Source of the DNA: Escherichia coli
GTDB taxonomy: Bacteria > Pseudomonadota > Gammaproteobacteria > Enterobacterales > Enterobacteriaceae
NCBI RefSeq assembly: GCF_003334405.1
Contig: NZ_QOWM01000001.1
Length of the DNA: 64,000 nucleotides
Direction: 5' to 3' (one strand)
Shown here: positions 24,501 to 27,500 of the stretch, piece by piece
Numbering within the stretch: the stretch's first letter is position 1
Layout: each line of letters begins with the position of its first letter
Program-made: the position numbers

Positions 24501-27500
24501 GTTTTAAGTTATGGGCAACGCAATGCACTCTCTTAAGACACTTCTACAGTTACCTTGCGGATGGCGATGCAGTCGACAAATTATTAGCTCTGACGGTATA
24601 ACCCTCCATCTCCACGGAAAACGCAAAACAGCACAATGTCCTGAATGCTTTAAGCGTAGCGACTCTGTTCATAGTTGTCGTCGGCGCCGGATACAGCATC
24701 TACCCTGCTCAGGGCAGACGCTATGGCTTGTATTTTCCGTCCGCCACTGGTACTGCCGTAACCCGGCTTGTTCACGTAAAATTTTTGCCGAGTCGCTTGC
24801 TCCCTTCGCCGGTTCACACCAGCAGTCTTCACAGGCGTTACAAAATTTACAACGTCAACTGGGATTAATAGCTGGAGGTGAGGCTGGAAAACGGGCTGCA
24901 ACGGCAGCGGGTCTCCGTTGCAGTGCTGATACTCTTCTTCGCAGGGTTATCAATACCCCGGAGACGAAACAGTCAGGCGCGCCTCATGTCGGTATTGATG
25001 AGTGGGCGTGGCATCGGGGCCACTGCTGCGGTATGTTAATAGTCAATCTTGATACTCACCGTCCCCTCGTCCTGCTTCCCGGCCGTGATCAGCGTACGCT
25101 GGCGACCTGGTTCAGAAAATATCCGGAAATACAGGTTGTCTCGCGTGATCGCAGTGGAGTCTATGCGACAGCAGCACGTGAAGGTGCACCTCAGGCCAGA
25201 CAGGTGGCCGATCGATGGCACCTGCTAAAAAATATTGGGAGCCTGAACGAATGATGTACAGACATATGCCTCTGATACGTCTTGTTGTCAGAGAGTTATC
25301 ACTGAAGAAATCACCTGAGCCAGAAATATCTGTGCCTGTAGCATCGCTCCGTCGTCTGGAACGCCTTAAACAGCACATCCGCAAAAAACGGCATCAGCGT
25401 TGGACAGAGGTTATGGCCCTGCATAACAAGGGATGTAGTTTCAGGGAAATATCCCGTATTACAGGCCTGTCGCGAGTGACAGTCAGTCGCTGGGTGGGTT
25501 CAGGAACATTCCCTGAAATGTCAACTAGGCCTCCAAAGCGAGGGCTTCTGGACCCATGGAGGGAGTGGTTAAAAGAGCAACGAGAATGTGGTAATTATAA
25601 CTCCGGCCGGATATGGCGGGAAATGGTGGCCAGGGGGGTTACAGGCAGTGAAACCATCGTCAGGGATGCTGTTGCCAAATGGCGTAAAGGCTGGATCCCA
25701 CCGGTTACTACTGCCGCAAGACTTCCTTCAGTGTCCCGGGTAAGCCGCTGGTTGATGCCCTGGAGAATAATCAGGGGTGAAGAAAATTATGCTTTCCGAT
25801 TTATTAGTCTGATGTATGAAAAAGAACCGGAGTTGAAAATAGCGCAGCAACTGGTACTCGAGTTCTACCGTATTCTGAAAACCTAAAATAAATCACAGCT
25901 AAGCAGCTGGTTCACTCGGGTCCACGAAAGCGGCTCAGCAGAACTTCGGTGCGTAGCTGCGGGGATGGAAGCTGATGCTGCGGCTATATGTGAGGCAATC
26001 AGCAGTCGCTGGAGTACTGGTGTTGTCGAAGGTCATGTAAATCGCCTGAAGGTGCTGATACGCCAGATGTATGGTCGAGCCGGACTTGAACTACTTAGGC
26101 GGAGGGTAATGAGTCCACTGGCATGAAAATCTTCACCCAGGTTGCGGAAGAGCCACTTTTGCACTGTTCGTGACAGTATGGCCTTTATGTACTCACTTTG
26201 TTACCGGTAGCTGGATCATCACTACCGTGCTGCAAATGGTGGTGAACAGCATCAATTGTGGAATGAATGTTGCCGAAGCGACCAATGCGCCTCGTTTCCA
26301 CTATCAGTGGTTGCCGGACGAGCTGCGTGTTGAAAAGGGTTTAGTCCGGATACGCTCAAGCTGCTGGATGCAAAAGGTCAGAAAGTGGCGCTGAATGAGG
26401 CGATGGGCAGCACGCAAAGCATTATGGTTGGGTCGGATGGTGAGTTGTACGGCGCATCCGACTCGCGCTTGGTGGATGATTTAACGGCGGGGTATTAATT
26501 GACATCCCCCGGCGCAATGTGCCGGGGGATAATGGTTTTATGCGGTCAATAATCGTCCGGGATTATCGATACAGAGTTTTTTGAGGATCGTTTTATCGAC
26601 GCCGCGCTCCGCCAGATAGGCCAGAAAAACATCTGGAACAAATCCCCAGCCATTACCGCCATTTTTAGCCCACATTTGTTTAAGGAAGACATCGTGGCTG
26701 AGAACAAGCTGATCGGCGTATCCCAACTCAATGAGATGAGCGACGGCATCGGCAGTCTCCTGCACCCCTGGCGCTATTCCCTCTTTCGGGAAGGTAATGT
26801 CTAGGCCAATCATGTCGAATTCCAGCCAGACACCTTTATCAAGCATTTTCCGCTGATACGCCACGTCTTTTCCTGACGGATCCGAGTGTGCGAGAGAGAC
26901 TTTATTTGGCGAGACGCCCATTTCACCTAACACAATGTCGAGTACTTCATCACCGCGACGAAGCCAGCCCGGCATGTGAATATTCATCGCCACATGAGGA
27001 TTGTTAATCTGTGCCAGCGAGGCAGCCCGCAAGCTGTTATGCTCGGCTTCGGTAAATGTCGGTGAAACACCTATTTCACCGATCATTCCGGCACGAATAT
27101 CCGTATCGCCAATCCCTTGATTCAATTCTTTATCGATCGTTGTCGCCAGTTCATCAACCGTTTTATGAATTCTCTGGCTTTCAAATTTTTCCAGGTAGGG
27201 ACCGGAGGAAGCAACAATATTCAGACCTGTTTTTAATGCGACTTCTCGTAATGCCTGCGCATCTCGTCCGATAGACTCAGACCCTGTGGCATCAATAATG
27301 GTGCGACCACCGAGCGAGATAAAGTTATTAATTTCGAAGATCACATCTTCAATAGGTTTGCGGTCCATATTATCAGCGCAGCAATAAGGATCGTGTTTTA
27401 ATGCCCACTGGATTTCTGCCGTGACTTTTTTATCAACAAGCCGTTGTGAAAAAGGATAGCAAGGAGCATCCACAACAGAGGAAAGATCGTTGAACAGATG

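What the first reader, a model, noticed from the sequence alone, without database searches (positions are those of the whole stretch)
26170..26498. Orphan 3' fragment of a gamma-glutamyltranspeptidase gene
About 100 codons matching the conserved small-subunit C-terminus of GGT, with one frameshift, lie between the ISL3 end and the convergent operon. It implies the island once carried a ggt paralogue, possibly functionally linked to the adjacent genes.
Basis: partly seen in the sequence, partly recalled or inferred. Interest (0 to 1): 0.35.

Follow-up and report, generated by a model that had tools for sequence, protein, structure and literature searches.

The report
Dead ggt fragment beside captured operon
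This is an ordinary, already annotated, non-functional tail end of a gamma-glutamyltranspeptidase gene, carried along when an insertion-sequence event lifted the neighbouring four-gene operon out of its original place next to ggt in an Escherichia ancestor.

Summary
Window 26200/26205-26498 (+) is the last ~97-100 codons of a gamma-glutamyltransferase gene. It has a 1-bp deletion in an A-run (26333-26336) and a 12-bp deletion at its 5' edge. It lies between an ISEc38-like ISL3 element (24416-26176) and a convergent php-DMT-GATase1-like-DeoR/PfkB operon. RefSeq already annotates it as a partial, frameshifted pseudogene, and about 2650 of 5426 complete E. coli genomes carry it with the same two junctions.

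The interpretation needs correcting. The fragment is neither a copy of the strain's own ggt (22 substitutions apart in a genome holding both) nor evidence for a functional island paralogue. In Citrobacter spp. and Salmonella enterica subsp. diarizonae, the single chromosomal ggt (ugpQ-yhhA-ggt) is directly followed by this same convergent operon; S. bongori has it 1.7 kb further on. Window 26205-30678 aligns to that locus as one colinear 4.47-kb block, terminator hairpin included.

The fragment groups with Escherichia ggt (200/200 bootstraps). Its private changes are neutral (7 non-synonymous, 2 synonymous, against 7:99 in functional alleles). It is therefore the decayed edge of a block captured between insertion sequences from an Escherichia-lineage ggt locus. 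Interest is low.

The parts
24416..26176 (+). ISEc38-like ISL3 insertion sequence with a broken transposase gene; it forms the left boundary of the fragment
   Evidence: 43-nt terminal inverted repeats at 24415-24457 and 26134-26176. 95% nt identity to plasmid ISEc38 copies over window 24416-26175. The transposase is split into ORFs 24511-25254, 25215-25886 and 25965-26126, and PGAP marks it 'internal stop'. The flanks (..CTTCACAT | TATGGCCT..) show no 8-bp target duplication.
26177..26199 (.). 23-nt filler of unknown origin between the IS end and the ggt homology
   Evidence: No similarity to the ggt sequence expected upstream in any of 9 species or alleles. Unique in the window. Not part of ISEc38 copies.
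26200..26498 (+). ggt 3' pseudogene fragment, equivalent to GGT residues ~478/484-580. It has a 12-bp deletion at 26204|26205, a 1-bp deletion in the A-run 26333-26336, and the stop codon at 26496-26498.
   Evidence: PGAP annotates 26206-26498 (L001 20107-20399) as 'gamma-glutamyltransferase; frameshifted; incomplete; missing N-terminus'.
26504..26530 (+). 12-bp-stem hairpin: the native ggt terminator, shared with the convergent operon
   Evidence: Folding energy -26.9 kcal/mol, z = -3.9. Terminator-like on the + strand. A hairpin sits at the same position, with related CCCGG...CCGGG arms, in Citrobacter and S. diarizonae.
26538..27572 (-). phosphotriesterase-related (PTE family) gene, last gene of the convergent operon
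   Evidence: 344-aa ORF, PF02126, PGAP name. 85-88% aa identity to the gene next to ggt in Salmonella and Citrobacter.
27575..28540 (-). DMT (YdcZ-type) transporter gene, broken in this window
   Evidence: Split into ORFs 27575-27838 and 27932-28540. PGAP marks it 'internal stop'. Intact at 321-323 aa in L009, L098, Citrobacter and S. bongori.
28597..29355 (-). GATase1-like (PF07090) gene
   Evidence: 81-83% aa identity to the native-locus homologues.
29369..30583 (-). DeoR-HTH / PfkB ribokinase-like fusion gene, first gene of the operon
   Evidence: Ribokinase model TIGR02152 scores 279 bits, below its cut-off of 299.65. 79-82% aa identity to native-locus homologues.
30584..30678 (-). Upstream region of the operon; right edge of the 4.47-kb block homologous to the native ggt locus
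   Evidence: One colinear blastn alignment, window 26205-30678 against L021, L028 and L032.
30692..30800 (+). End of an IS66-family remnant (GTAAGCG...), 13 bp beyond the block; right boundary
   Evidence: Aligns at 87% to an inverted copy of the same end at window 23467 running downward. PGAP annotates a partial IS66 transposase here.

Best explanation
The fragment is a decaying, non-functional scrap of a housekeeping ggt gene. It marks the left edge of a 4.47-kb chromosomal block: the ggt tail, the shared terminator, the php-DMT-GATase1-like-DeoR/PfkB operon and about 95 bp of its promoter region. In relatives this operon sits convergent to ggt, between ggt and yhhY/yhhX. In an Escherichia-lineage donor, an insertion-sequence event broke ggt near codon 480 and moved or captured the block. 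The block now sits between an ISEc38-like element and an IS66 remnant at the cobU-proximal edge of the yeeX-cobU island. The fragment lacks a promoter, the signal peptide, the large subunit and the catalytic threonine, so it has drifted neutrally. It first acquired a 12-bp deletion and nine substitutions, then the 1-bp frameshift, and later allele-specific changes including a stop codon in some strains. Shown: the homology, the colinear synteny, placement within Escherichia, neutral evolution, and the shared junctions across the species. Inferred: the IS mechanism, the direction of the move, and the identity of the donor.
For: 1. Family identity: E=5.8e-56 to NF007187 positions 485-581 and E=1.6e-52 to the 2DBU small chain residues 94-190.
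2. Native synteny: the full-length ggt in ugpC-ugpQ-yhhA-ggt is followed within about 45 bp by the same convergent operon in Citrobacter portucalensis, two other Citrobacter species and S. enterica diarizonae. S. bongori has the same order with a 1.7-kb insert between php and ggt.
3. Window 26205-30678 aligns as one piece at 76-77% nt identity to the three loci where the operon directly abuts ggt (L021, L028, L032); against S. bongori L096 it aligns in two pieces. The intergenic hairpin is conserved in position.
4. The fragment plus Escherichia ggt form a clade in 200/200 bootstraps. Identity is 92.5-92.8% to E. coli K-12-type ggt, 88.7-91.1% to other Escherichia species and about 81% to Citrobacter and Salmonella.
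5. Substitutions private to the fragment lineage are 7 non-synonymous to 2 synonymous (dN/dS about 1.05), against 7:99 in functional Escherichia alleles, Fisher p=2.5e-6. Seven of the nine run GC to AT.
6. The operon proteins are 79-97% identical to the Salmonella and Citrobacter versions. This is the same range as the flanking housekeeping proteins YhhA, YhhY, UgpQ and GGT (65-93%).
7. The ISL3-ggt' junction occurs in 2647 genomes and the ggt'-php junction in 2658 of 5426. All contexts sampled are next to cobU.
8. Allele L014 has the same truncation and 12-bp deletion but no frameshift, so truncation came before the frameshift.
9. No promoter-like site was found in 26000-26700.
Against: No Escherichia genome with the operon still attached to an intact ggt was found. 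The five Escherichia species representatives lack it at ggt, and php homologues jump from 99% or more (E. coli island) to 88% (S. bongori). The donor is therefore inferred, not observed. The position of the fragment inside the Escherichia clade is unresolved (internal bootstraps 3-30%), because only 294 nt are available. The ISL3 element has no target-site duplication, and a 23-nt filler separates it from ggt'. So this IS may not be the agent that cut ggt. A complete ggt may have been transferred first and truncated soon afterwards; the data cannot exclude a short-lived intact copy.
Confidence: 0.85

Rival explanations
1. One reading: the island once carried a complete, working ggt paralogue that cooperated with the adjacent operon and was later destroyed by the ISL3 insertion.
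For: The fragment is a lineage distinct from the resident ggt. The ggt-operon adjacency recurs in several genera, which could hint at a link. The GATase1-like gene might act on amide or gamma-glutamyl compounds; this is speculation.
Against: The adjacency is explained by the native locus, where the ggt is the ordinary ugpQ-yhhA-linked copy. The fragment lineage shows neutral change only, 7 non-synonymous to 2 synonymous. The genes are convergent with a terminator between them. S. bongori tolerates a 1.7-kb insert between them. The native ggt-yhhY interval sampled in E. coli holds either nothing or yrhB-tssD, never the operon. All about 2650 island copies have the same truncation.
Confidence: 0.08
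2. Recent segmental duplication of the strain's own ggt 3' end, or an assembly artefact.
For: The closest relatives of the fragment are E. coli ggt alleles.
Against: In strain 720632 the fragment (100% identical to the window) and the resident ggt differ at 22 of 293 aligned bases plus two indels, and the sequence beyond the stop codon is unrelated. No resident ggt sampled exceeds 92.8% identity. The same structure is present in about 2650 complete, independently assembled genomes.
Confidence: 0.01
3. The block, including the ggt tail, came by horizontal transfer from a Salmonella or Citrobacter chromosome, where the arrangement is seen today.
For: Only those genera currently show ggt next to the operon.
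Against: The ggt tail is about 81-83% identical to those genera but 92.5% identical to E. coli, and it sits inside the Escherichia clade in 200/200 bootstraps. The operon is only 74-79% nt identical to theirs, a typical inter-genus distance.
Confidence: 0.04
4. The fragment is retained because it now does something, for example encoding a small protein (ORFs 26170-26394 or 26385-26498) or serving as a 3' UTR or antisense element for the php operon.
For: It persists in half of E. coli genomes. The hairpin may still terminate or stabilise the php transcript.
Against: The ORFs are not conserved: the L098 and L099 alleles have TGG to TGA at 26212-26214, and L014 has a different frame. No promoter-like site was found. 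The substitution pattern is neutral. Persistence is explained by linkage to the operon.
Confidence: 0.02

Closest known systems
E. coli housekeeping ggt (b3447; GGT structures PDB 2DBU and related entries)
   Same: Same gene family and genus. The repaired translation aligns end to end with small-subunit residues 94-190, about 90% aa and 92.5% nt identity.
   Different: Only the last ~17% of the gene is present. There is no promoter, signal peptide, large subunit or Thr391 nucleophile. It is frameshifted, has a 12-bp deletion, and carries 7 private non-synonymous changes at otherwise invariant sites. The downstream sequence differs from that of resident E. coli ggt.
RefSeq/PGAP pseudogene annotation (e.g. 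CXX37_RS00985 in NZ_CP025842.1)
   Same: The same feature, with identical sequence. It is already labelled 'gamma-glutamyltransferase; frameshifted; incomplete; missing N-terminus', and likewise in other genomes.
   Different: The annotation gives no origin. The link to the native ggt-php locus and the Escherichia-lineage source is worked out here.
Native ggt -> <- php-DMT-GATase1-like-DeoR/PfkB locus of Citrobacter spp., S. enterica diarizonae and S. bongori
   Same: Same gene order, orientation and intergenic hairpin. The region is colinear over 4.47 kb.
   Different: There the ggt is complete and lies between yhhA and yhhY/yhhX. In the window the block is cut inside ggt, is bracketed by IS remnants and lies about 1.5 Mb away on the K-12 map, next to cobU.
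Donor-context scraps carried with IS-captured genes, such as the Kluyvera chromosomal fragments flanking ISEcp1-blaCTX-M (from my own knowledge, not tested here)
   Same: A truncated neighbouring gene travels with the captured cargo and reveals the locus and lineage of origin.
   Different: Here the cargo is a metabolic operon on a chromosomal island, not a resistance gene on a plasmid. The responsible IS and mechanism are not established, since there is no target duplication.

Membership tests
Gamma-glutamyltransferase (Pfam PF01019 / NCBIfam NF007187; Ntn-hydrolase) | Significant sequence match to the family profile | tested here: met
   NF007187 E=5.8e-56 and TIGR00066 E=4.9e-27. PDB 2DBU_B E=1.6e-52.
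Gamma-glutamyltransferase (Pfam PF01019 / NCBIfam NF007187; Ntn-hydrolase) | Full-length precursor (signal peptide, large subunit, small subunit) reaching the curated score | tested here: not met
   Only profile positions 485-581 of 581 are matched, at 190 bits against a cut-off of 990. Upstream sequence is filler and an IS.
Gamma-glutamyltransferase (Pfam PF01019 / NCBIfam NF007187; Ntn-hydrolase) | Catalytic and autoprocessing nucleophile Thr391, the first residue of the small subunit | tested here: not met
   The match begins at small-chain residue 94, so residue 1 is absent. The role of Thr391 is from established knowledge of E. coli GGT.
Gamma-glutamyltransferase (Pfam PF01019 / NCBIfam NF007187; Ntn-hydrolase) | Uninterrupted reading frame | tested here: not met
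   1-bp deletion at 26333-26336. 12-bp deletion removing the PGGS-equivalent codons. A stop codon in some alleles.
Gamma-glutamyltransferase (Pfam PF01019 / NCBIfam NF007187; Ntn-hydrolase) | Purifying selection, as expected of a working gene | tested here: not met
   7 non-synonymous to 2 synonymous on the fragment stem, against 7:99 in functional alleles, p=2.5e-6.
ISL3 family insertion sequence (ISEc38-like) | High nucleotide identity to a named ISL3 element, with terminal inverted repeats | tested here: met
   95% identity to ISEc38 copies over 24416-26175. 43-nt inverted repeats, 81% complementary.
ISL3 family insertion sequence (ISEc38-like) | 8-bp target-site duplication marking a simple insertion | tested here: not met
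   The flanks CTTCACAT and TATGGCCT differ. This implies a later rearrangement or deletion at one end.
ISL3 family insertion sequence (ISEc38-like) | Intact transposase gene | tested here: not met
   Split into three ORFs. PGAP marks it 'internal stop'.
Block derived from the native ggt-php chromosomal locus | Colinear homology running from inside ggt, through the intergenic hairpin and all four operon genes, into the operon's upstream region | tested here: met
   Single alignments of 4475-4491 nt to L021, L028 and L032. Hairpin alignment.
Block derived from the native ggt-php chromosomal locus | The ggt at the native locus is the housekeeping orthologue (ugp-yhhA-ggt context) | tested here: met
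   ORF order in L032, with UgpC, UgpQ, YhhA and YhhY matches. Pfam context in S. bongori. Whether those genomes hold a second ggt was not tested.
Block derived from the native ggt-php chromosomal locus | A donor genome of the Escherichia lineage that still has the native arrangement | tested here: not met
   None among 5 Escherichia species representatives. None among php homologues. None in the sampled E. coli ggt loci.

The most novel reading that the evidence does not exclude
The ggt-operon adjacency, kept in Salmonella bongori, S. enterica diarizonae, several Citrobacter species and the inferred Escherichia donor, might reflect a real metabolic partnership. Periplasmic GGT would release a compound that the DMT transporter imports and that the GATase1-like, PTE-like and PfkB enzymes then process. 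Island-bearing E. coli would rely on their resident ggt in trans. The fragment itself would still be dead.
Probability: 0.05. Interest if true: 0.4.

Novelty: already known. Interest (0 to 1): 0.15.

Why it matters
It matters little in itself: this is a dead gene scrap that RefSeq already flags. Its modest value is as a marker of origin. It shows that a four-gene operon of unknown function, present in about half of E. coli genomes, was not imported from afar. The operon comes from an Escherichia-lineage ggt-yhhY locus, where Salmonella and Citrobacter still keep it. The fragment also gives a neutral-evolution yardstick for ordering the events: truncation, then a 12-bp deletion and nine substitutions, then the frameshift, then strain-specific stops. 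Finally, it warns against reading function into a neighbouring gene fragment at the edge of an island.

Tried and rejected
1. The short-query protein search returned only short partial proteins and no full-length GGT, so it could not identify a donor. It did reveal P0002, the allele without the frameshift.
2. I looked for an Escherichia genome with the operon still beside an intact ggt. None was found among the species representatives, among php homologues, or in P0127, a 91% 'intermediate' that is just the island gene with an internal deletion.
3. I considered gene conversion from the resident ggt to explain the K-12-like patch in L014. I rejected it as unnecessary. Two of the five sites are shared with other island alleles, and the tree places L014 as sister to the other two island alleles, which group at 95% bootstrap, so simple descent suffices. 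An assembly chimera in that short-read contig cannot be excluded.
4. I tried to extend ggt homology upstream of 26200. The 23-nt filler matches nothing in ggt of 9 alleles or species, nor elsewhere in the window.
5. I looked for an ISL3 target-site duplication that would show a simple insertion into ggt. There is none.
6. Literature searches found no paper on this fragment or on the operon's location.
7. The window is not strain 720632 itself (98.7% identity over 22 kb). The same-genome comparison therefore uses a genome whose fragment is identical, not the window's own genome.
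Full report
**Observation.** The window is E. 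coli chromosome from the yeeA-yeeX to cobUST region. Frame 1 of 26193-26335 reads ..VTGSWIITTVLQMVVNSINCGMNVAEATNAPRFHYQWLPDELRVEKG. Frame 3 then continues FSPDTLKLLDAKGQKVALNEAMGSTQSIMVGSDGELYGASDSRLVDDLTAGY* to the stop at 26496-26498. Joined across the frame change, this matches NCBIfam NF007187 (gamma-glutamyltransferase) positions 485-581 of 581 at E=5.8e-56. It also matches residues 94-190 of the 190-residue small subunit of E. coli GGT (PDB 2DBU_B) at E=1.6e-52. The frameshift is a single missing A in an A5 run (26333-26336).

The coordinates need trimming.
- 26170-26176 belongs to the right inverted repeat of the ISL3 element.
- 26177-26199 is a 23-nt filler unrelated to ggt.
- ggt homology begins at 26205, or at 26200 if a 12-bp deletion between two CGGTAGC repeats is accepted. 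That deletion removes the PGGS-equivalent codons.

**Is it already known?** RefSeq/PGAP annotates exactly this stretch as 'gamma-glutamyltransferase; frameshifted; incomplete; missing N-terminus', flanked by 'ISL3 family transposase' and 'phosphotriesterase-related protein'. All 5426 complete E. coli genomes have a resident ggt. The ISL3-ggt' junction is present in 2647 genomes and the ggt'-php junction in 2658. The ten contexts listed of the 40 contigs read were all next to cobU. Two literature searches found no paper discussing the fragment.

**Not a copy of the strain's own gene.** Strain 720632 carries a fragment 100% identical to the window's. Its resident ggt (NZ_CP025842.1 3399796-3401538, followed by yrhB) differs from the fragment at 22 of 293 aligned bases plus the two indels. 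Similarity stops at the stop codon. The window is not that strain (98.7% identity over 22 kb), but the fragment sequence is the same.

**Where the fragment comes from.** A scan of one genome per species found no ggt closer than 90-91% aa identity, and the best hits were Escherichia species. Four of the retrieved loci proved decisive: Citrobacter portucalensis, two other Citrobacter species and Salmonella enterica subsp. diarizonae. In these, the full-length ggt is followed within about 45 bp by the same convergent operon: php, DMT transporter, GATase1-like and DeoR/PfkB kinase. In C. portucalensis the order is ugpB-A-E-C-Q, yhhA, ggt, then the operon, then yhhY and yhhX. The ggt there is therefore the ordinary housekeeping orthologue. 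S. bongori has the same order with a 1.7-kb insert between php and ggt.

Window 26205-30678 aligns to the Citrobacter and S. diarizonae loci as a single colinear piece of about 4.47 kb at 76-77% identity. The piece runs from inside ggt to about 95 bp upstream of the kinase gene. The intergenic 12-bp-stem hairpin (26504-26530, -26.9 kcal/mol, z=-3.9) lies at the same position with related arms. The adjacency of the ggt tail and the operon is thus inherited synteny, not something assembled on the island.

**Which lineage.** Over the 294-nt tail the identities are as follows.

| Compared with | Identity to the fragment |
|---|---|
| E. coli K-12-type ggt | 92.5-92.8% |
| Other E. coli alleles | 89.4-91.8% |
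| E. albertii, E. whittamii, Escherichia sp. E1V33 and two divergent genomes labelled E. coli (E69, SCPM) | 88.7-91.1% |
| Citrobacter, Salmonella, Klebsiella, Enterobacter | 80-83% |

The island alleles plus all Escherichia ggt form a clade in 200/200 neighbour-joining bootstraps. The position inside that clade is unresolved. The operon proteins are 79-97% identical to their Salmonella and Citrobacter counterparts. This is the same range as the flanking housekeeping proteins: GGT 90-93%, UgpQ 86-90%, YhhY 82-86% and YhhA 65-83%. Both the tail and the operon therefore look like Escherichia-lineage versions of an arrangement ancestral to the Escherichia-Salmonella-Citrobacter group. No Escherichia genome with the native arrangement was found. 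The sampled E. coli ggt-yhhY intervals are either empty or hold yrhB-yrhD-yrhA-tssD.

**Was it ever a working paralogue?** Nine substitutions are shared by all three island alleles examined and absent from ten functional Escherichia alleles. Seven are non-synonymous, at positions invariant in all 23 functional sequences, and two are synonymous, giving dN/dS of about 1.05. The functional alleles differ from their consensus by 7 non-synonymous and 99 synonymous changes (Fisher p=2.5e-6). Seven of the nine changes run GC to AT, which matches the mutational bias expected in unconstrained DNA (the bias itself is established knowledge). The fragment has therefore drifted neutrally for all of its resolvable separate history. 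Nothing suggests a functional period on the island, although a brief one cannot be excluded.

The order of events can be read from the alleles. L014 (a short-read contig) has the same ISL3 junction and 12-bp deletion but an intact A5 run. The complete-genome alleles all have the 1-bp deletion. L098 and L099 add a TGG to TGA stop, and the window allele adds two further substitutions, at 26302 and 26369.

**Boundaries and mechanism.** On the left is an ISEc38-like ISL3 element (24416-26176). It is 95% identical to plasmid ISEc38 copies and has 43-nt inverted repeats, but a broken transposase and no 8-bp target duplication. On the right, 13 bp beyond the block, is an IS66-family end (GTAAGCG... 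at 30692). An inverted copy of the same end lies at 23467. The block is thus bracketed by insertion-sequence remnants, which fits IS-mediated capture or rearrangement. The missing duplication and the 23-nt filler mean that the IS which actually cut ggt is not identified. This step is inference.

**Function.** The fragment has none. It lacks a promoter-like site, the signal peptide, the large subunit and the first 93 residues of the small subunit, including the Thr391 nucleophile (the residue's role is established knowledge). It is frameshifted, and its ORFs are not conserved between alleles. It is convergent to the operon and separated from it by a terminator, so a transcriptional link is excluded. 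A metabolic link between GGT and the operon is not excluded but has no support.

**Verdict.** The fragment is a distinct, old ggt lineage and not an artefact, but it is a hitch-hiking edge of a captured native locus rather than the remains of an island-borne functional paralogue. The feature is already annotated and ordinary, so interest is low. The one small new point is that the scrap identifies where the widespread E. coli php-DMT-GATase1-like-PfkB operon came from.

Noticed in passing
window 27575-28540 (-): The DMT (YdcZ-type) transporter gene of the operon is split by an internal stop in this window and in strain 720632. It is intact (321-323 aa) in other E. coli (L009, L098) and in Citrobacter and S. 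bongori. The operon may therefore be decaying in some E. coli lineages. Other strains show IS1 or IS3 insertions, or deletions, in the same operon (L010, L012, L099, L104).
   Followed up: partly
window 23370-23467 (-) and 30692-30800 (+): Two inverted copies of the same IS66-family end (GTAAGCG..., 87% identical). They run outward and bracket 23468-30691, which holds yeeW, the ISEc38-like element, the ggt tail and the operon. This resembles a composite-transposon-like or IS-scrambled arrangement. The left copy corresponds to the K-12 yoeF/yoeD-type pseudogene region.
   Followed up: partly
L100 (E. coli 18KM2445) 3295-3356; L102 (AR_451); L002 (K-12) 4295-7750: The ggt-yhhY interval is polymorphic in E. 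coli. It is either empty (ggt stop, then yhhY about 60 bp later) or filled by yrhB-yrhD-(IS1)-yrhA-tssD. Citrobacter and Salmonella have the php operon at the same site, so this interval is a hot spot for gene turnover.
   Followed up: partly
L014 3458-3849 (Logan contig ERR10299219_1819): This island allele of the ggt tail lacks the 1-bp frameshift and keeps K-12-like bases at 26331 and 26345. It has the same ISL3 junction and 12-bp deletion. It is read here as a basal allele, but gene conversion or a short-read assembly chimera is not excluded. The php gene is broken in this contig.
   Followed up: partly
L095/L096 (S. bongori) 8036-9718: A 1.7-kb insert with small unannotated ORFs (46, 295 and 89 aa) lies between php and ggt in S. 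bongori. It interrupts the otherwise tight ggt-php junction.
   Followed up: no
window 24100-24415 versus L001 17324-18117: The window lacks most of the two zinc-ribbon (DUF7828) genes that precede the ISL3 element in most other E. coli. yeeW (23852-46, minus strand to 24046) lies about 370 bp from the IS instead, so this strain has an extra deletion to the left of the IS. Homology to L001 starts at window 24166.
   Followed up: partly
window 26538-30583 (-): The operon's function is unknown. It encodes a PTE-family hydrolase (only weak matches to characterised phosphotriesterase and lactonase models), a GATase1-like protein with no NCBIfam match, a DeoR-ribokinase-like fusion scoring just below the ribokinase cut-off (279 against 299.65 bits), and a DMT transporter. 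Its GC content is 43.8%, against 47.6% for the whole window and 55% for ggt. This suggests an uncharacterised sugar, lactone or nucleoside catabolic module.
   Followed up: no
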